IMG/VR virus record: IMGVR_UViG_3300036715_002161
Span: 74,037-138,036 of that record
Length of the DNA: 64,000 bases
DNA from: a virus
Strand: one strand, 5' to 3'
Numbering within the stretch: the stretch's first letter is position 1; every line of letters starts with the position of its first letter. The notes under the pieces are model-generated. The model saw only the letters and a program-made list of their open reading frames with translations, did not search any database and was not told the DNA's origin. The translations under genes were made by a program, and so were the position numbers. Positions 20,951-64,000 of the stretch are shown here, in pieces.

Positions 20951-21688
20951 CTAGATTTCTACTACCAATTCCTGGATATATTCAGGGTTTAGCCTTATAG
21001 GTTCATATCCATAAGGGTTACAGATAACTCTGGTTTCTCCGATTTTATAGTCAAAGGAGTCATGAGTATGCCCGTGAATCCAGACCTCCGGTTGGTACTC
21101 CATAATCAATCTATCCAGGCTATTACTAAAGCAGTCATTTAAAAGGTCTCCTTTAAATCTGGCCGGAATGGATTGAAGACTAGGAGTATGATGGGTCACC
21201 ACTACAGTTTTAACCTTAGTATCCAAGGCATCTTTCAAGAACTCGACAGTATTACTGTTCTCTAGTACTGTGTCTTCTACCCTAAGTCCTTTAATAACCC
21301 TATAATCTGAGAAGTATTTCTGGACTTCCCACTTTCTAGGCTCTTCTATATTAGTCCAAAGAGTGTCTCCGATAAATCTAATCCCTTCGAAGAAAAACTC
21401 ATCTCCAGCCTGTAGGATCACACAGTTGGATAGGTCAGAGTATCTTTTTTTAAAGGCTTCCTTGGAGTATTGACTTCCGTAAAACTCGTGATTACCCGAC
21501 ACCATGACAAAAGTCTTGTCTGGATTCTCAATAAAGATTTCTCTGAGGCGATCTATAGACTCATGGCTGGAGGAGGTCATATCCCCGGCCATGACAACCA
21601 AGTCTGCCTCTTTGCTAATAGTAATCCCTAGACTATCAATAGGTCTAAGAAATTCAAGATGGACATCTGACATTACTTGAAACTTCAT
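20951..21688 (-). CDS. Calcineurin-like metallophosphoesterase
   Basis: SDVHLE, AGD, GNHE, THH, HGHTH. Confidence 0.92.
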   Translation of the reverse strand: MKFQVMSDVHLEFLRPIDSLGITISKEADLVVMAGDMTSSSHESIDRLREIFIENPDKTFVMVSGNHEFYGSQYSKEAFKKRYSDLSNCVILQAGDEFFFEGIRFIGDTLWTNIEEPRKWEVQKYFSDYRVIKGLRVEDTVLENSNTVEFLKDALDTKVKTVVVTHHTPSLQSIPARFKGDLLNDCFSNSLDRLIMEYQPEVWIHGHTHDSFDYKIGETRVICNPYGYEPIRLNPEYIQELVVEI

Positions 21689-21959
21689 TTTTTTCTCCTG
21701 CTAAAAATTCGCCCAAAAGAGCTGAATAGGCTGCTGCATCAACATAGTCATCAGCCCTAAAAGAACCTTGACGACCACGTACTAGTTTTAATAATATCAT
21801 AAACTCCCAGCCTTCGGCCTCTGTAAGTAAATGGCCAGTAAGGGAATTGAATACCTCGACTATGGTCTTCATACTACGTTCACCTTCTGGTTTATCTCGT
21901 TGACTACCTCGGTCTTTCATTTCAGAGGCAGCCTTCTCTAGGAAGTTAATTGCTTTCAT
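21654..21959 (-). CDS. Conserved phage protein (DUF6378-like, all-alpha NTP pyrophosphatase-like)
   Basis: GWEFMILLKLVR...DDYVDAAAYSAL. Confidence 0.7.
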   Translation of the reverse strand: MKAINFLEKAASEMKDRGSQRDKPEGERSMKTIVEVFNSLTGHLLTEAEGWEFMILLKLVRGRQGSFRADDYVDAAAYSALLGEFLAGEKNEVSSNVRCPS

Positions 21960-22045
21960 ATTGTTTAGATTTGAATATAGGCCTATGGTTGAATTTAAAA
22001 AGGGAAGTAGGTACCCTAGGTTAGGTCTTGGTATTTAAACCTCTC

Positions 22046-22390
22046 CTAGTGAAGAATCGTCCGTGTTAGGATATTCGGTTCAGTCTCCAGGTACTTAATA
22101 TAGGGTAGATTATCTGTGGCCTCCAAGATTCTTATAGTAGTTTCTTTATCATAGGCCTCATTACCACAGTCAGAGCAAACATATGCATTAACCATTAATG
22201 ATCTAGGCTCTTGGTCTAAGGGTGTTTCTAAAAAGACCTCGTGGTCTTTAACTAACTCTACTGTTCCTTCTCCACCACAATCATTACAATCAGAACTATC
22301 TATATCTTGTAGTCCAAATTCTTCCTGTGTATTAGACAAGGCTCGACGAATTGCTTCTTTTTCTACTTCATTAGTAACTTCGGTCTTCAT
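22046..22390 (-). CDS. Zinc-ribbon protein (YgiT/MqsA-type)
   Basis: CNDCGG ... AYVCSDCGNE. Confidence 0.6.
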   Translation of the reverse strand: MKTEVTNEVEKEAIRRALSNTQEEFGLQDIDSSDCNDCGGEGTVELVKDHEVFLETPLDQEPRSLMVNAYVCSDCGNEAYDKETTIRILEATDNLPYIKYLETEPNILTRTILH

Positions 22391-22415
22391 GATGATCTCC
22401 CATAGATTCTTAATA

Positions 22416-22929
22416 TTTTAGGTTTGTCAAAGCCCTTTTCCAAACTTTTCGTTTGAAATCAAGTACTTACCTTCCCAACTGACAAACTGACAAACTTTCT
22501 TGAAAAAAATGCCCCCACCTCTCTATAAAAAGCTCTATTAGAACGAAAGTACGACAACCTCTATATATATATATAATATAATATAATATAATATATATAT
22601 ATAGAACAAGGGGTTAGCTCTTTTTTGTAGAGACCCAGGCTTTTCCTTTTATAAAGGTTGGCAAATAATTTTATGCTGTAGACAGAAAAGATGTGCCATT
22701 TTCACGAAAAGTTTTGTCAGTTTGTCAATAATGGGGTTAAGTGCTTGATTTTAAAAAGAAATCCAACTGACAAAACTATTTTCCCATTTGTCAATAACTG
22801 ACAAAGTATAGATAACTCTTTGTTTTAATTAACTTTTTTAATTTGTCCATTTTGTCAATAAAATCCAAAAATTGACAAACTGACAAAATGCCTCTGACAG
22901 ACTTTTGGAGTTTTGTCAGTAATTTGTCA
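22416..22929. repeat. 514-bp inverted repeat, left copy; origin-like (TGACAAA iterons, AT core, two IHF-consensus sites)
   Basis: Reverse complement of 55984-56497 with about 7 substitutions and one AT-unit shift. Confidence 0.97.
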
Positions 22930-22935
22930 TAGACT

Positions 22936-22964
22936 AAAAAAAACCAGAGATGCTTTTCTGGTTT
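22936..22964 (-). terminator. Intrinsic terminator
   Basis: - strand AAACCAGA-AAAGCATC-TCTGGTTT followed by a T run. Confidence 0.75.
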
Positions 22965-23485
22965 CCTTATTCCTTTACTCATCCAATTTATTGAACCCGT
23001 TTATGCATATATCTCTATACTCCAGTACCAGGTACCAGCTCCTGGTTACCGGATCTGGGGGCTCGCCCCGTCAGGATTCTGAAAATATAAGAATAGGTGT
23101 TACACCTATTAACTACTTGTTTACAAATTACTAAAGGAAAAACAGATATACTTAAAAAATTTTACCTATCGCATGGGGGTGCCAGTAGATAGGAAGAGCT
23201 CAATATGCCGTTACAACATACATCTTACCTGTACTAGATACTATATCTATATTCAATTTACAAAATAAGTAAAGACTTTAAAGACCTTCTTTACTTACTT
23301 TGCTGAGATGAACTCAAATTTCTCATATCTCGATATGAGCGTTGGACCGTAGCGGATATATTAAAAAACGTAGCCAGAGGCGTAGTGTTTAATATGGAGC
23401 GGTGGGTCCAGAGCTCATATCGAGAAAGTTAAACGAGGACGTTAAGCATCCTCTAACCACTCATCATGGTAGTACTTCATCCCAA
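22936..23485 (-). ncRNA. Candidate large structured non-coding RNA (~550 nt)
   Basis: Bounded by phage promoter (23490-23518) and terminator; no long sense ORF; about ten hairpins with G-U pairs that work only on the - strand. Confidence 0.65.
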
Positions 23486-23489
23486 AGTC

Positions 23490-23518
23490 CTTATACCAGG
23501 TTTTTAGAAATTATCTAA
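23490..23518 (-). promoter_or_regulatory. Phage promoter TTAGATA-N13-TGGTATAAG
   Basis: One of about 10 copies of the bipartite motif. Confidence 0.8.
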
Positions 23519-23860
23519 ACAGTTCCCGATTTTTTTAAGTACGTTACTTGGGACCCTTTCTTCAAACATTGGAAATCCGTATGCCTCATTATTAGAATTC
23601 CATAAGGCGGTTTCGATATTGAGCATGGTACTAGTTTCATGGTTATAATTGATCAAATGAAACACCTGCCCAGAGTCCATCTTTTCTGTGGCAACTTCTC
23701 TTCCATTTTTAAAACAGAAAAGTTCGTCGTCTCTACAGAGGGCTATGGCCACTTCGGCCCTGTTAGCCTCTGGTTGAAGCTTAACTTTAAACGTTACTCC
23801 ACCCTTAGGCTCCCAACTACTTGTCCTAAGATGTCGATAAAAAATCATTTCTTTGTTCAT
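23504..23860 (-). CDS. Hypothetical conserved phage protein
   Basis: KGGVT...VAIALCRDDELFCFKNGREVA pattern seen in phage proteins. Confidence 0.6.
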   Translation of the reverse strand: MNKEMIFYRHLRTSSWEPKGGVTFKVKLQPEANRAEVAIALCRDDELFCFKNGREVATEKMDSGQVFHLINYNHETSTMLNIETALWNSNNEAYGFPMFEERVPSNVLKKIGNCLDNF

Positions 23861-24329
23861 TTAAGTATCCTAAAAATGCTAAACATATAGCATCGGCTTC
23901 ATGATCTGATTTAAGTTTTTTTCCATAAATCAATTCAGCAGCGGCCAATGAAAACTCTTTGTTGAAGGAATTGCCTGGATTAGTAAAACCATGATCTCTA
24001 ACCAGTATTTTGCACAGGGTTGATTTCCAATCTATGGCCCTTACCATTTGTACTGGTATTTCTTTAGACTCAAAGTAGAATACCAAGGCCCCTATCATCA
24101 TAAGTATATACTCAGATGCTCCTGAATTTACCCCACTATATCCTACATATCTCTCCATTACAACCGAAGAAATTGAGTAGTCTTGGAGCAGGGTTTCCAG
24201 GCCGGAAATAAAACCAGTAATACCTTGGTCCCTTGGTTTGCCACTATACCTAAGGACAACCTCTCCCTCTGGACTGATTATTCCTAGTCCAAAAGAAGCC
24301 CAACCTGGATCAATACCAAGGGCGAACAT
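23826..24329 (-). CDS. ruvC: RuvC-like Holliday junction resolvase
   Basis: LGIDPG, VVMER, DHEADAICLA. Confidence 0.85.
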   Translation of the reverse strand: MFALGIDPGWASFGLGIISPEGEVVLRYSGKPRDQGITGFISGLETLLQDYSISSVVMERYVGYSGVNSGASEYILMMIGALVFYFESKEIPVQMVRAIDWKSTLCKILVRDHGFTNPGNSFNKEFSLAAAELIYGKKLKSDHEADAICLAFLGYLNEQRNDFLSTS

Positions 24330-25320
24330 ACATTATCTCATCAAACTCCCCAAGACTTGGTTGCTGAGTTTTGAAGTACTGACTTCTGGCCACTTCAAAA
24401 CTAATTGGTTTTTCAGGCCTTTTCAATAGATTGGCAGCAATATTTTCAAGACTATTTTGAAAGACAACGGCCACAGTACGAAGCCCTGCCTCATTAGCCA
24501 CTGTCAAAAACTCCTTGCGGGACTTGATTGAAACATGGCAGTTGTCTACAAATCGGACCGGGTCTTCCTGCTTGACAAACTTATTAAACTCCTTTAATAC
24601 TTTACCACTAAAGCCAGAGTCTTCTGTGGAATGTTTCCAGGCTTCTTGGTAATTTCCAGGATACCAGTCCAGTCTAAGGGTGTCCATACTAAAGATGGGC
24701 CCATCCCTTTGACCCAACCAGGTACTCTTGCCGGACCCCGAACATCCAATCATGAATAAAATTTCATTTAATTTTATATCTGGTTCTGGCAAGGTCACAG
24801 GATTTTTAAGCCAAAACTCTGCCAAAAAAATCTTTTCCTTATGATTATCTGAGATTCTTCCTCGGCAGTCAGCCATAATTACCTTGGAGTATAAATCCCA
24901 GTCAATAGTGGCCTGTGCCCACTCAGGCTTGACCTTATAGTATAGGTGATTTTCAATCAGCCATATGACTTTACCCAGGTCAAACCCGAAAGGAATATTA
25001 TCCCTATTGGTAATCAGCCAGTCTTCGGCCAATCGGGCAGAAATAAGCTCATGGCCATAAAATACAGACCTACCTTCTTTATCTCTCTTGGCTTCCGGTT
25101 TGCCAGCATCATGGAAGGCCACGGCCAAAAAGCCTGAGGCCAGGTCAGTATTAGAAAGATCGATGTCGGACCTAAGGTATTCCTGTACTACCATGTCAGT
25201 ATGAACTAGCACTGACTCCTCCCTATGCCATTCAGAGTCTTCCCGACACAGACCCATTATACGAAACAATGGATCCGGCCTCAGAACTTCTTGATAGAAG
25301 TTCAGTAGGGTTTCTTTCAT
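24310..25320 (-). CDS. HD-domain plus P-loop polynucleotide kinase-like protein
   Basis: WHREESVLVHT, FHDAGK, FYGHELISA; GCSGSGKST Walker A. Confidence 0.85.
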   Translation of the reverse strand: MKETLLNFYQEVLRPDPLFRIMGLCREDSEWHREESVLVHTDMVVQEYLRSDIDLSNTDLASGFLAVAFHDAGKPEAKRDKEGRSVFYGHELISARLAEDWLITNRDNIPFGFDLGKVIWLIENHLYYKVKPEWAQATIDWDLYSKVIMADCRGRISDNHKEKIFLAEFWLKNPVTLPEPDIKLNEILFMIGCSGSGKSTWLGQRDGPIFSMDTLRLDWYPGNYQEAWKHSTEDSGFSGKVLKEFNKFVKQEDPVRFVDNCHVSIKSRKEFLTVANEAGLRTVAVVFQNSLENIAANLLKRPEKPISFEVARSQYFKTQQPSLGEFDEIMYVRPWY

Positions 25321-27769: not shown

Positions 27770-28173
27770 TTAAATTCCCCATTTATAATCTCCGAGTCTG
27801 ACGAGTTTAAACCGCTGCTACAATTTACTGCGACTACTTCAGAGGTACTCTTTAGACTGAATCGGACAAGTCGGGTCTCCAAGGCATCACAGCCGAACAA
27901 ATGTTCATATTCGGCAGATGCATGGAGCCACCATCTAAGAGCTTGGGCAGCCGAATACCCCAGGAGTCCGGCATTGGAAAGTTCTTGGTCATACGGACTA
28001 TGACTTGGAATTCCAGAAGGATTTTCTTGAAACTTGACCTCGACCCAGTTATTGTCGAAAGTCTGACCTGAAACGGTCAAAGGTCTACTAGATACTCTGG
28101 CCTCTACTGAATACCCGGTCTTTCGACTAGATCCAGTACTTCTGTTCATTCTGTAACCTTGCTCAAGTTCCAT
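27766..28173 (-). CDS. Hypothetical protein, first gene of the NAD operon
   Basis: RBS AAGGAG upstream; stop overlaps prs start. Confidence 0.65.
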   Translation of the reverse strand: MELEQGYRMNRSTGSSRKTGYSVEARVSSRPLTVSGQTFDNNWVEVKFQENPSGIPSHSPYDQELSNAGLLGYSAAQALRWWLHASAEYEHLFGCDALETRLVRFSLKSTSEVVAVNCSSGLNSSDSEIINGEFK

Positions 28174-28191
28174 TTAATTCTCCTTTGAAAT

Positions 28192-28430
28192 AAAAAAAGT
28201 TCAATCCACACCTGACTGGGATAGCGAATCCCAATCAGGTACAGGTTGAAGACTGCTCTTGTGAAACAATCAACAGCTTTCTGAATACCGGCAGGTCACC
28301 ACCAGGCTCCAGACGTCCAGTTTCAACAGCTTGACTAAGGCTGTTACGTTATGTCAGGGCGTCTGTAACACCCCTATCAATACCCTATGCTTATAACTGG
28401 AAAGTTCAGCAAAAGTATTAATTCTCTATT
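28192..28430 (-). ncRNA. Candidate structured leader/small RNA ending in a long terminator hairpin
   Basis: Promoter at 28434-28463; nested stems; 14-bp hairpin plus T7 at 28192-28250. Confidence 0.6.
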
Positions 28431-28433
28431 GTT

Positions 28434-28463
28434 CTTATACCAAATTCTTAGGAACTTATCTAA
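28434..28463 (-). promoter_or_regulatory. Phage promoter TTAGATA-N14-TGGTATAAG
   Basis: Exact bipartite motif. Confidence 0.8.
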
Positions 28464-35515: not shown

Positions 35516-35545
35516 TATATTTCCTACTTGGGTTGATCGGAGGTG

Positions 35546-35791
35546 TTACTCTTTCTTATACCACGAATTTCCTATTATTCCATTTCTGGCCTTGAAAATT
35601 GTCAAGGCTAATATTTCCTCTGACAATTTAAAAAAAGACTCATTTAACCTCTGGTAGGCTGCCCTATGTTTGGGCGAGCCTGGAACCAGTTGTTGTAAGT
35701 CTTCTTTTAAAATTTCGAGAGAAAGACGGGACAGTTTCTGCTGAGTATGAACCTCGGCCACTACTGATAAAACTGGGTCTTCCTGATCCAA
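35546..35791 (-). CDS. Hypothetical protein
   Basis: Packed ORF; contains TGGTATAAG (35555-35563) near its 3' end, upstream of the polymerase. Confidence 0.5.
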   Translation of the reverse strand: MDQEDPVLSVVAEVHTQQKLSRLSLEILKEDLQQLVPGSPKHRAAYQRLNESFFKLSEEILALTIFKARNGIIGNSWYKKE

Positions 35792-35792
35792 A

Positions 35793-36077
35793 TCAGCGTC
35801 CCGGAATAATGGTCAAGGATACTTTTACAGGCTTGAAAATAGACCCGGCAAAATAGCGAGCCACGTTTCGACTAGTACATACGAAGTTGTCTAAACGGTT
35901 GGAACTTTTATGTACCAAACCCCAACGATTACTTTTGGCATTATGTACTAATACTTCAACCTCTACTTTACGAATTACTCCTGTTTTATTGTCTCGGGCA
36001 TCTTGTCTAGTGCCATATAGAGGAATCTTTGAATTTTTCAACTGGTCTTCACACACCCACATTTGTTTTGTAATCAT
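35793..36077 (-). CDS. Hypothetical protein
   Basis: AAGGA RBS, packed ORF. Confidence 0.6.
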   Translation of the reverse strand: MITKQMWVCEDQLKNSKIPLYGTRQDARDNKTGVIRKVEVEVLVHNAKSNRWGLVHKSSNRLDNFVCTSRNVARYFAGSIFKPVKVSLTIIPGR

Positions 36078-36093
36078 TTTATTTCCTTTTAAG

Positions 36094-36324
36094 TTAAGTT
36101 TTAGGTTTTCTTACCCGGCGGACCACCAATGGCCCAAAGGTAAAATTAATGGTTAGAAATTTGGCATCATAGGCAGCTCTTATTGCATCAAAATCAGAAT
36201 CTGCCTTAACTACACCAAGCCTTGGAAGGGGACCCCATTTGGGTTTCCAATAATCTGGAAACACATCATAGGTATAAGTAAATCCCCGGTACCTACTAGA
36301 GTAATACTTTACTGTTGGCTGCAT
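36094..36324 (-). CDS. Hypothetical protein
   Basis: Packed ORF on the coding strand. Confidence 0.55.
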   Translation of the reverse strand: MQPTVKYYSSRYRGFTYTYDVFPDYWKPKWGPLPRLGVVKADSDFDAIRAAYDAKFLTINFTFGPLVVRRVRKPKT

Positions 36325-36378
36325 GTTAATACTTAAAATCTGGGAGAATTCCCAGTTCCAAGAATAATACGTAATACA

Positions 36379-55983: not shown

Positions 55984-56497
55984 TGACAAGTTACTGACAA
56001 AACTCCAAAAGTCTGTCAGAGGCATTTTGTCAGTTTGTCAATTTTTGGATTTTATTGACAAAATGGACAAATTAAAAAAGTTAATTAAAACAAAGAGTTA
56101 TCTATACTTTGTCAATAATTGACAAATGGGAAAATAGTTTTGTCAGTTGGATTTCTTTTTAAAATCAAGCACTTAACCCCATTATTGACAAACTGACAAA
56201 ACTTTTCGTGAAAATGTCACATCTTTTCTGTCTACAGCATAAAATTATTTGCCAACCTCTATAAAAGGAAAAGCCTGGGTCTCTACAAAAAAGAGCTAAC
56301 CCCTTGTTCTATATATATATATATTATATTATATTATATTATATATATATAGAGGTTGTCATACTTTCGTTCTAATAGAGCTTTTTATAGAGAGGTGGGG
56401 GCATTTTTTTCAAGAAAGTTTGTCAGTTTGTCAGTTGGGAAGGTAAGTACTTGATTTCAAACGAAAAGTTTGGAAAATGGCTTTGACAAACCTAAAA
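55984..56497. repeat. 514-bp inverted repeat, right copy
   Basis: Reverse complement of 22416-22929. Confidence 0.97.
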
Positions 56498-56526
56498 AGA
56501 GCCTAGGGAATTTCTCCCTAGGTTAT
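56494..56526 (-). terminator. Intrinsic terminator abutting the right repeat copy
   Basis: - strand CCTAGGGA-GAAAT-TCCCTAGG then CTCTTTTT. Confidence 0.7.
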
Positions 56527-63757: not shown

Positions 63758-64000
63758 ATTAACTCCCATCTATTCTGACCCTAGCGACATTAATAGACAT
63801 GCCGATTCTGTCCTGGAAACGGCCTTGACCGAGCAGTTCCCTATTGAGAGCAAGAATTATATCTTACAGGTCAGTAATGTAAAAGCAGATCCTAAGAAGT
63901 TTACGGCAAATGATGAAAAGACGGCCATCCTACAATCCAAGTCTTTGACCTATCCAATTAGAGGAGACCTAACCTTGACCTCCAAGGCCACGGGTAAGGT
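63747..64000 (+). CDS. N-terminus of a multisubunit RNA polymerase beta-like subunit (truncated by window; not in ORF track)
   Basis: MQPKLTP...EQFPIESKNYILQVSNV...SKSLTYPIRGDLTL resembles bacterial RpoB N-terminal FPI.S...L......TY..P.R..L.L. Confidence 0.65.
   Translation, partial: MQPKLTPIYSDPSDINRHADSVLETALTEQFPIESKNYILQVSNVKADPKKFTANDEKTAILQSKSLTYPIRGDLTLTSKATGK

What the first reader, a model, noticed from the sequence alone, without database searches (positions are those of the whole stretch)
22936..23518. Promoter-to-terminator ~550-nt ORF-free unit packed with hairpins: candidate novel large ncRNA beside the left repeat
Seen on the - strand: phage promoter (23490-23518), then ACCAT/GTGGT, GAGGATG/CGTCCTC, a ~98-nt rod closed by a perfect 13-bp stem (23328-23340 with 23413-23425) with inner TGGACC/GGTCCA and ATATTAAA/TTTAATAT stems, a 15-bp stem CAAAGTAAGTAAAGA/TCTTTACTTATTTTG, TATGTTG/CGGCATA, CCTATC/GATAGG, AATAGGTG/CACCTATT, CTG..GGGG/CCCC.CAG, TCCGGTA-CCAGG/CCTGG-TACTGGA, and a terminator ending a few nt from the repeat. 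Non-Watson-Crick positions in five stems are G-U on the - strand (A-C on +), the pattern expected of a selected RNA structure. An overlapping palindrome (CTCATAT-CGAG-ATATGAG, 23322-23339) competes with the 13-bp stem. The only notable sense ORF I saw is a 12-aa peptide, MKYYHDEWLEDA (23480-23442). I cannot match it to tmRNA, RNase P or an intron. Inference: an undescribed phage RNA, e.g. a replication primer/regulator, protein sponge or anti-defence decoy.
Basis: partly seen in the sequence, partly recalled or inferred. Interest (0 to 1): 0.85.

Follow-up and report, generated by a model that had tools for sequence, protein, structure and literature searches.

The report
Orphan-phage gene-free early transcription unit
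A 545-base stretch of an uncultivated phage genome has an early-type promoter, a strong terminator and no gene, so it may make a non-coding RNA, but only its first third folds unusually well and no relatives or RNA data exist to prove it.

Summary
The sequence features are real. Window 23518-23491 (- strand) belongs to a promoter family (TTAGAT-N15/16-TGGTATAA). That family has 13 matches in the 138-kb genome, all on the - strand, against 1.2 expected. A clean intrinsic terminator sits at 22968-22937. The roughly 545 nt between them have no ORF over 23 aa in sense, none under recoding, and no codon periodicity. Of 20 such promoter-like sites, three lack an ORF starting within 65 nt: this one, the tRNA promoter and one with a 261-nt leader.

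"Packed with hairpins" holds only in part. The 98-nt rod (z -9), the 16-bp hairpin (z -5.7) and the terminator are exceptional. The 286-nt 3' body folds like shuffled sequence (z -0.8).

The G-U strand argument fails. Base composition explains the asymmetry, and the rod is 11 kcal/mol more stable on the + strand.

There is no Rfam match. No homologue exists outside the phage's own population, so covariation cannot be tested. Five population substitutions are uninformative, and two of them break the 13-bp stem without compensation.

Verdict: a plausible but unproven early phage non-coding RNA gene. The scan has noted ORF-free promoter-to-terminator units in other phages before.

The parts
23490..23518 (-). 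Early-type promoter. The -35-like TTAGAT is at 23518-23513, followed by a 15-nt spacer ending in C, then the extended -10 TGGTATAAG at 23498-23490. The inferred start is near 23483. The -35 lies inside the last codons of the upstream 118-aa ORF, whose stop is at 23506-23504.
   Evidence: one of 13 regex matches, all on the - strand, with 1.23 expected. Another member drives the two tRNA genes. The transcription start is inferred and was not measured.
23442..23480 (-). 12-codon ORF MKYYHDEWLEDA. It starts about 3 nt after the inferred transcription start and has no Shine-Dalgarno sequence. Its stop codon lies in the loop of the next hairpin.
   Evidence: Probably not translated, but this was not tested.
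23435..23453 (-). 7-bp hairpin GAGGAUG/CGUCCUC with a weak T-rich tail. It is a terminator-like site.
   Evidence: terminator scan; -9.8 kcal/mol, z -4.5.
23328..23425 (.). 98-nt imperfect inverted repeat, the 'rod'. It has a perfect 13-bp closing stem, then 6-bp and 8-bp inner stems. It is equally significant on both strands and more stable on the + strand.
   Evidence: (I5), 38, 75: - strand -39.5 kcal/mol, z -9.0; + strand -50.6 kcal/mol, z -9.6. The population variant in run X3 changes 23420 and 23421 without compensation and deletes 23403.
23322..23339 (.). Perfect 18-bp palindrome CTCATAT-CGAG-ATATGAG. It overlaps the 3' arm of the 13-bp stem. It could be an alternative pairing or a protein-binding dyad.
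   Evidence: read directly from the sequence.
23260..23303 (-). A+U-rich hairpin with a 16-bp stem (two G-U pairs on the - strand) and a 12-nt loop.
   Evidence: (I18), 38, 75: -16.6 kcal/mol, z -5.7 on -; -10.7 kcal/mol, z -4.5 on +.
22972..23257 (-). 3' body with small hairpins at 23203-23221, 23165-23193, 23092-23110 (followed by a T-rich tail), 23055-23074 and 23021-23053. It is not more structured than shuffled sequence.
   Evidence: z -0.77, 44 of 200 shuffles as good; z -1.36.
22937..22968 (-). Intrinsic terminator: a 12-bp stem, an 8-nt loop and a U8 tract. It ends at the edge of the 524-bp repeat. The same hairpin is terminator-like on the + strand with a poorer tail.
   Evidence: -12.2 kcal/mol, z -4.0; + strand listing.
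22416..22939 (.). Context, not part of the RNA: one of three copies of a 524-bp repeat, 98-99% identical to one another. It carries clustered TGACAAA/TTTGTCA heptamers and a 46-bp (TA)n palindrome.

Best explanation
The stretch is a stand-alone early transcription unit that makes a non-coding RNA.

Proposed course of events:
- The RNA polymerase that reads the phage's TTAGAT-N15/16-TGGTATAAG promoters is presumably the host sigma-70-type enzyme early in infection.
- It starts near 23483 on the - strand and transcribes about 545 nt that cannot encode a protein.
- It is released at the hairpin-U8 terminator at 22968-22937.

Only the 5' third is unusually structured. That third holds two small hairpins, a 98-nt rod and a 16-bp hairpin. 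These long duplexes would probably be the functional and stabilising part. They could act as a nuclease-resistant, double-stranded surface for a host or phage protein, working in trans as a decoy or sponge. The 286-nt body then looks like a spacer before the terminator.

Shown: promoter-family membership, the terminator, the absence of coding capacity, and the exceptional stability of two inverted repeats.

Inferred: that the promoter fires, that the RNA accumulates, which strand matters for the rod, and any function.
For: - Promoter family: 13 of 13 matches are on the - strand, 11 are intergenic, and 1.23 are expected.
- That strand carries the replication and nucleotide-metabolism genes and the tRNAs.
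- The + strand structural genes instead carry G[TCG]TAAAATA: 16 matches on +, 1 on -.
- 17 of 20 GGTATAA promoter-like sites have an ORF of at least 30 aa starting within 65 nt. The three exceptions are this unit (none before the terminator), the tRNA promoter, and one with a 261-nt leader.
- The terminator is strong.
- There is no ORF, no recoded ORF and no period-3 signal.
- It lies in the largest non-coding stretch of a 92.6%-coding genome.
- The rod and hairpin have z -9 and -5.7, and the window holding them is in the top 6 of 1378.
- Precedent: about 1-kb ORF-less gaps of the lytic phages ICP1 and K give abundant long non-coding transcripts of unknown function (passages read in PMC7567579 and PMC9241854).
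Against: - There is no expression evidence of any kind.
- No homologue exists, so there is no covariation test.
- Folding significance is the same on both strands, and the rod is more stable on the + strand. The inverted repeats could therefore act as DNA.
- More than half of the unit is no better folded than shuffles.
- A natural variant (run X3) carries two adjacent uncompensated changes in the perfect 13-bp stem.
- There is no complementarity longer than 13 nt to the rest of the genome, so no antisense target is evident.
- Two internal terminator-like hairpins might cut the transcript short.
- Transcription could also simply read in from the upstream operon.
Confidence: 0.4

Rival explanations
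1. The stretch has no function of its own. It is the untranslated tail of the upstream early operon plus a stack of terminators that keep transcription out of the 524-bp repeat. The promoter is orphaned, left after loss of a gene or serving only to top up downstream transcription.
For: - The 3' 286 nt fold like random sequence.
- There are three terminator-like hairpins in series.
- At repeat copy 3 a terminator hairpin also abuts the repeat on the side that - strand transcription arrives from.
- Population diversity in the unit is 5 substituted sites in 583 nt. The flanks show 10 in about 816 nt and 3 in about 882 nt, so the unit is no more conserved than its neighbours.
Against: - A 545-nt useless stretch is odd in a 92.6%-coding genome.
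- No period-3 remnant of a decayed gene is present.
- The promoter is a good family member.
- The rod and the 16-bp hairpin are far beyond chance.
Confidence: 0.2
2. The important features act as DNA. The 98-bp inverted repeat, the 18-bp perfect palindrome and the 16-bp inverted repeat could be protein-binding dyads or cruciform or single-strand hairpin signals. They might serve priming or recombination and work together with the adjacent iteron and AT-core repeat.
For: - The z-scores are symmetrical on the strands.
- The rod is more stable on the strand opposite to the promoter.
- There is a perfect palindrome plus a third half-site.
- The unit is adjacent to a repeat with 13 heptamers and a (TA)n core.
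- Similar TGACAAA arrays occur in unrelated contigs, one of them between an SSB gene and a D5-type primase-helicase gene.
- Three changes cluster within 19 nt of the rod in an otherwise identical 1.5 kb in run X3. This is the kind of event quasi-palindromes undergo; that link is inference.
Against: - The other two copies of the repeat have no such inverted repeats beside them.
- This reading does not explain the promoter and terminator framing.
- No binding protein is known.
Confidence: 0.15
3. The unit is a cis-acting leader. The structured RNA made just after the promoter modifies RNA polymerase (a put-like or nut-like processive antiterminator) or is an RNase III processing site. Transcripts then pass the three terminators and the repeat into the downstream 114-aa, DUF6378 and phosphoesterase genes.
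For: The order is promoter, then very stable stem-loops, then a spacer, then successive terminators, then genes on the same strand. An earlier scan note on another phage reached a put-like reading for a similar gap. That note is a lead only.
Against: - About 1.1 kb, including a 524-bp repeat, separates the promoter from the next gene.
- A promoter-like site for that gene lies inside the left end of the repeat.
- The rod has no resemblance to known put or nut elements that I could test.
- No relatives exist for comparison.
Confidence: 0.1
4. The RNA is an origin-activating or primer RNA for the neighbouring iteron and AT-core repeat. This is the first reader's primer idea, on the model of ColE1 RNA II or the T4 oriF/oriG R-loop.
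For: It is about 545 nt long, directed towards the repeat, and ends at its edge. The repeat has origin-like anatomy. The similar length to ColE1 RNA II is recalled knowledge.
Against: - A canonical hairpin-U8 terminator releases the RNA before the repeat.
- The (TA)n core lies about 330 nt beyond the terminator.
- Repeat copies 1 and 3 lack any such unit.
- No G-rich or C-rich hybrid-forming pair was seen.
Confidence: 0.08
5. The unit encodes one or more very small proteins: the 12-aa MKYYHDEWLEDA or the 23-aa GTG ORF at 23460-23389. Alternatively the 12-codon ORF is a leader peptide controlling the hairpin that holds its stop codon.
For: The stop codon of the 12-aa ORF lies in the loop of the first terminator-like hairpin.
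Against: - Neither ORF has a Shine-Dalgarno sequence.
- The AUG would be about 3 nt from the 5' end.
- Neither ORF has homologues.
- The region has no period-3 signal.
Confidence: 0.05

Closest known systems
Long non-coding transcripts from ORF-less gaps of large lytic phages: the ICP1 transcript of about 800 nt between gp139 and gp140, and the two phage K lncRNAs
   Same: Each is an intergenic gap of about 0.5-1 kb in a large virulent phage with no coding capacity and of unknown function. The ICP1 transcript is the most abundant phage RNA (passages read in PMC7567579, and PMC9241854).
   Different: Those RNAs were seen by RNA-seq, and this one has no expression data. There is no sequence similarity to any record of the phage collection.
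GOLLD and ROOL, large ornate RNAs often found in phages and prophages
   Same: The size class is similar, the setting is a phage, and the function is unknown. They often lie near tRNA genes (statement in PMC7567579; for 10.1101/2024.12.08.627333 only the listing and the start of the abstract were seen).
   Different: No covariance-model match appears even at E up to 10. Here the fold is a string of local hairpins, and over half of the unit is not better than random, so it is not an intricate multi-domain fold. It lies 7 kb from the tRNAs.
ColE1 RNA II pre-primer and T4 oriF/oriG R-loop origins (recalled textbook knowledge, not from a call)
   Same: A promoter fires towards an origin-like element. 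The RNA length of about 550 nt resembles RNA II, and the RNA has a structured 5' part.
   Different: Here an intrinsic terminator ends the RNA before the repeat. The AT core is hundreds of nt further on. Two other copies of the repeat lack the unit.
Phage T4 stable RNAs C and D (species 1 and 2), and HK022 put RNAs (both recalled, not from a call)
   Same: They are phage-encoded, structured, non-coding RNAs made from early or tRNA-type promoters. The put RNAs are stem-loops just downstream of a promoter and ahead of terminators.
   Different: Both are much shorter, about 70-140 nt. No sequence or model was available to test membership.

Membership tests
Independent bacterial/phage non-coding RNA gene (operational definition) | Own promoter | tested here: met
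   The site matches a 13-member, strand-exclusive promoter family, with 1.23 expected by chance. This is a sequence match only, and activity was not measured.
Independent bacterial/phage non-coding RNA gene (operational definition) | Intrinsic terminator at the 3' end | tested here: met
   A 12-bp stem plus U8 at 22968-22937, -12.2 kcal/mol, z -4.0.
Independent bacterial/phage non-coding RNA gene (operational definition) | No protein-coding capacity | tested here: met
   The period-3 signal is 0.59 against a coding median of 5.27, and 0 of 125 coding windows score as low.
Independent bacterial/phage non-coding RNA gene (operational definition) | A transcript is observed | not testable with these tools
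   Only four DNA metagenome runs hold the stretch.
Independent bacterial/phage non-coding RNA gene (operational definition) | Structure conserved with covariation in homologues | not testable with these tools
   No homologue was found. Population variants give 5 substitutions: 2 in loops, 1 turning G-U into A-U, and 2 disruptive.
Rfam large RNAs (GOLLD, ROOL, HEARO, OLE, raiA, 6S, tmRNA, RNase P, group I/II introns) | Covariance-model match | tested here: not met
   There is no family at gathering score in the window apart from two tRNAs. At E up to 10 on 22600-23700 there are only five chance-level hits, to mir-6129, RsaD, mir-3660, FsrA and U4. ARAGORN finds nothing.
ColE1-type RNA II primer | The transcript runs into the origin and forms a persistent hybrid, with no terminator before the origin | tested here: not met
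   A strong terminator ends the unit at the edge of the repeat.
ColE1-type RNA II primer | Antisense RNA I from the 5' region | tested here: inconclusive
   The consensus scan found no + strand promoter-like site inside the unit. The scan is crude.
T4 oriF/oriG-type R-loop origin | An unwinding element immediately downstream of the promoter | tested here: not met
   The only A/T core, at 22560-22605, lies about 880 nt from the promoter and beyond the terminator.
Retron msr-msd RNA | Adjacent reverse transcriptase gene | tested here: not met
   Nine neighbouring ORFs scanned against Pfam and PHROGs show no reverse transcriptase.
MITE-like or dispersed repeat element (for the rod) | Further copies in the genome | tested here: not met
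   Self-BLAST finds no second copy.

The most novel reading that the evidence does not exclude
The unit may be the gene for a previously undescribed early phage RNA with no relative in any public collection. Its long duplex 5' domain (the 98-nt rod plus the 16-bp hairpin) would act either as a decoy for a host double-strand-RNA-sensing or nuclease system, or as the switch that singles out one of three identical iteron and AT-core repeats for use, for example as an origin.
Probability: 0.12. Interest if true: 0.6.

Novelty: new member of a known kind. Interest (0 to 1): 0.33.

Why it matters
Large lytic phages repeatedly turn out to make abundant long non-coding RNAs whose roles are unknown, as in ICP1, phage K, GOLLD and ROOL. 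A clean promoter-to-terminator, gene-free unit in a very isolated phage lineage would add an independent example. Its nearest protein relatives are about 38% identical. It also sits next to a thrice-repeated origin-like element, which could link early transcription to replication or to genome architecture.

As it stands it is only a candidate. Its value lies mainly in the phage's clear two-class promoter grammar, which makes the prediction directly testable in vitro.

Tried and rejected
Searches for homologues all failed.
- Megablast and blastn of 22600-23900 against the phage collection gave no match.
- The search for related loci with the flanking 118-aa and 114-aa proteins in viral contigs gave none. 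The 336-aa protein gave one distant locus.
- The pattern built from the 13-bp arms found nothing in viral contigs.
- The 15-nt double iteron gave over 100 chance hits, only one with two matches, and was useless.
- The double-iteron pair at its native spacing gave 0.
- The search for homologous proteins with the 118-aa protein found only its own 3-member cluster.
- For the 336-aa protein the next relatives after a 96% variant are at most 38% identical.
- An alignment-based scan gave 192 relatives, of which 80 were kept. 0 of those 80 loci carry any other neighbour gene of the unit, so synteny is absent.
- The metagenome scan with the 118-aa protein gave none. The tool may withhold near-identical records.

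Expression: no RNA holder is listed. The four holders are DNA metagenome runs kept as contigs, so start, end and strand of any RNA could not be read.

Antisense target search: nothing longer than 13 nt, E about 0.9.

Recurrent G-TAA-C hairpin motif: two occur in the unit, but there is no genome-wide family. TAA-loop hairpins number 29 against 20 in shuffles.

Readings rejected:
- Coding under alternative codes.
- A decayed gene.
- A second analogous gap at 35516-36378. It holds 76-94-aa ORFs.

Literature: a search for the heptamer with 'iterons' gave four unrelated papers, seen as listing only. A broad lncRNA query gave nothing relevant. Supplementary files were not opened.

Full report
SETTING

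The window is the last 64 kb of a 138,036-bp IMG/VR virus record. The two ends of the record overlap by 178 bp at 99.4% identity. The genome is therefore probably complete and circularly permuted, although it is labelled linear and 78% complete.

It is a large phage that is very isolated in sequence space.
- There is no DNA match in the phage collection at either sensitivity.
- The two ORFs flanking the finding have no relatives beyond their own clusters.
- A better-conserved neighbour, the 336-aa HD plus P-loop kinase-like protein, drops from a 96% population variant straight to 38% identity.

Genes on the - strand of the window include DNA polymerase, primase, helicases, ribonucleotide reductase, NAMPT, a RuvC-like resolvase and two tRNAs.

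WHAT IS THERE

On the - strand, the 118-aa ORF ends at 23504 and the next ORF of at least 50 aa starts at 22390. This 1,113-nt stretch is the longest non-coding region of a genome that is otherwise 92.6% covered by ORFs of at least 50 aa.

Its lower 524 bp (22416-22939) are one of three copies of a repeat, 98-99% identical to one another. The repeat carries nearly all the clustered TGACAAA/TTTGTCA heptamers of the genome and a 46-bp (TA)n palindrome.

The upper part, 22940-23503, is the finding.
- It has no sense ORF longer than 23 aa.
- Nothing opens up under table 4 or TAG=Q.
- Its period-3 signal is 0.59. The median of 125 coding windows is 5.27, and none of them scores as low.

It is therefore neither coding nor a freshly decayed gene.

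PROMOTER AND TERMINATOR

K-mers enriched in non-coding DNA pointed to TGGTATAAG. Listing its occurrences showed a family with TTAGAT(A) 15-16 nt upstream.

The pattern T[TA]A[GA]A[TC]-N14-19-G[GT]TATAA has 13 matches. All are on the - strand and 11 are intergenic. 100 block shuffles gave a mean of 1.23 and a maximum of 5. The pattern was written after looking at the data. The site at 23518-23491 is one of the 13, and another lies just upstream of the two tRNA genes.

The + strand structural genes instead carry G[TCG]TAAAATA: 16 matches on +, 1 on -. This confirms another first-stage note. The phage therefore has two promoter classes partitioned by strand, and the unit has the early-type one.

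Of 20 GGTATAA promoter-like sites, 17 have an ORF of at least 30 aa starting within 65 nt. The exceptions are this unit (no ORF before its terminator), the tRNA promoter, and one site with a 261-nt leader.

The unit ends in a textbook terminator: a 12-bp stem and U8, -12.2 kcal/mol, z -4.0. The terminator abuts the repeat. Two weaker terminator-like hairpins lie inside, at 23453-23435 and 23110-23092.

The inferred transcript runs from about 23483 to 22937, roughly 545 nt. The start is inferred from the -10 element only.

STRUCTURE

The whole stretch beats shuffles on both strands: z -5.80 on - and -5.54 on +. The inferred transcript has z -5.22.

Dissection shows where the signal lies.
- The 98-nt rod has z -9.0 on - and -9.6 on +.
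- The 16-bp hairpin has z -5.7 on - and -4.5 on +.
- The terminator and the first small hairpin are also significant.
- The 286 nt at 22972-23257 contain five of the listed stems. They have z -0.77 on -, with 44 of 200 shuffles as good, and -1.36 on +.

A genome-wide control used 1378 windows of 300 nt, with folding energy regressed on composition. It ranks 23165-23464 fifth on - and sixth on +. Windows 22965-23364 rank 269th to 494th.

The unit is therefore not packed with significant structure. It has two exceptional inverted repeats at its 5' end and an ordinary body.

STRAND

The - strand fold does have 22 G-U pairs against 11, and it is 15.4 kcal/mol more stable.

However, the - strand is G+T-rich. 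In 60 shuffles, each compared with its own reverse complement, the - version is 13.4 +/- 6.6 kcal/mol more stable and has 7.5 +/- 5.2 more G-U pairs. 24 and 16 of the 60 shuffles are as extreme as the observed values.

The rod, the dominant element, is 11 kcal/mol more stable on the + strand. The thermodynamic evidence therefore does not choose a strand, or even choose RNA over DNA. The - strand reading rests on the promoter and terminator alone.

POPULATION VARIATION

Four DNA metagenome runs hold the stretch. Their contigs, laid on 21600-24400, show five substituted sites in the unit.
- 23101 lies in the middle of a TAA triloop.
- 23177 lies in an apical loop.
- 23221 turns a closing G-U into A-U on the - strand.
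- 23420 and 23421 are adjacent changes in the 5' arm of the perfect 13-bp stem. Their partners 23333 and 23332 are unchanged in the same contig.

There are also two indels. One is a 1-nt deletion at 23403 in an internal loop. The other is a low-depth insertion behind 23179 in a loop.

Site density matches that of the flanks: 10 sites in 21600-22415 and 3 in 23519-24400. This is too little to test selection on structure. What there is shows that the perfect stem is not inviolable.

COMPARATIVE DATA

None could be obtained.
- An alignment of the 336-aa family found 192 IMG/VR relatives, of which 80 were kept. 0 of those 80 loci contain any other gene of this neighbourhood.
- Metagenome scans gave no relative of the 118-aa protein.

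KNOWN FAMILIES

Rfam gives nothing at gathering score except the tRNAs. At E up to 10 it gives only chance-level hits. ARAGORN finds nothing. GOLLD, ROOL, 6S, tmRNA, RNase P and introns are therefore not met.

A ColE1 RNA II-type or T4 R-loop-type role fits poorly for three reasons.
- The RNA is terminated before the repeat.
- The A/T core lies about 330 nt beyond the terminator.
- Repeat copies 1 and 3 have no such unit. Copy 1 sits between divergent genes. Copy 3 sits upstream of the nrd genes and has its own abutting terminator.

The closest documented kind is the ORF-less-gap long non-coding transcripts of large lytic phages. In ICP1 this is an RNA of about 800 nt from a gap of about 1 kb, and it is the most abundant phage transcript. 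Phage K has two lncRNAs (passages read).

Earlier notes of this scan describe ORF-free promoter-to-terminator units in RaK2-like jumbo phages and other phages. I could not test any relation to them beyond the negative blastn against the phage collection.

VERDICT

The best reading, at about 40%, is an early, stand-alone non-coding transcription unit whose functional part, if any, is the duplex-rich 5' third.

The rivals are:
- a functionless tail and terminator stack (20%);
- DNA-level inverted repeats linked to the neighbouring repeat (15%);
- a cis-acting antitermination or processing leader (10%);
- an origin primer or activator (8%);
- micro-ORFs (5%).

It would be a new member of a known kind. 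Interest is moderate to low until a transcript or relatives are found.

Noticed in passing
window 22416-22939, window 55984-56499 (inverted), and G000:C1:55153-55676: Three dispersed copies of a 524-bp element are 97.9-99.4% identical to one another. Each carries about 13 TGACAAA/TTTGTCA heptamers, often as 8-bp-period pairs, and a 46-bp (TA)n palindrome. Copy 1 lies between divergent genes. Copy 2 lies beside the finding. Copy 3 lies 218 nt upstream of the ribonucleotide reductase gene. Such high identity implies concerted evolution or recent spread.
   Followed up: partly
L187:3071-3341; L194:89-277; L193:2190-2279; L195:626-715: Dense arrays of the same TGACAAA/TTTGTCA heptamer occur in metagenome contigs that share no protein with this phage (up to 13 heptamers in 271 bp). 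In L187 the array lies between an SSB gene and a D5-type (DUF5906/Pox_D5) primase-helicase gene. In L193 and L194 the arrays abut FtsK/SpoIIIE-family ATPase genes. The contigs were found with a pattern that already required three heptamers.
   Followed up: partly
whole genome G000: Two promoter-like motif classes are partitioned by strand. TTAGAT-N15/16-TGGTATAA has 13 of 13 matches on the - strand, which carries the replication, nucleotide-metabolism and tRNA genes. G[TCG]TAAAATA has 16 of 17 matches on the + strand, which carries the structural genes, often only a few nt before the ATG.
   Followed up: yes
G000:C1:1-178 and 137859-138036 (window 63823-64000): The two ends of the record are 99.4% identical over 178 bp. 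The genome is therefore probably complete and circular or circularly permuted at about 137.86 kb, although it is labelled linear and 78% complete.
   Followed up: no
window 23403-23421: In one metagenome run (X3) a 6-kb contig is identical to the window over 22910-24400 except for three changes within 19 nt of the rod's 5' arm: 23420 T>A, 23421 C>T and a 1-nt deletion at 23403. A clustered change of this kind could be a template-switch event in a quasi-palindrome. That interpretation is inference.
   Followed up: no
window 28174-28463: A second early-type promoter, with TTAGAT at 28463, is followed by a 261-nt ORF-free leader before a 135-aa ORF. Apart from the tRNA promoter, it is the only other family member without an ORF close behind it. 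The 300-nt window at 28165 ranks among the better-folding ones on the - strand, z -2.86.
   Followed up: no
window 23203-23221 and 23092-23110: Two 8-bp hairpins 111 nt apart share a G-UAA-C triloop closing motif. No further intergenic copy exists in the genome.
   Followed up: yes
window 24310-25320: The 336-aa HD plus P-loop kinase-like protein (PHROG 6931, Pfam AAA_33) belongs to a widespread phage family. That family is annotated 'poly A polymerase' in Campylobacter and Rhodothermus phages. It has 192 relatives in IMG/VR, always in a different gene neighbourhood.
   Followed up: partly
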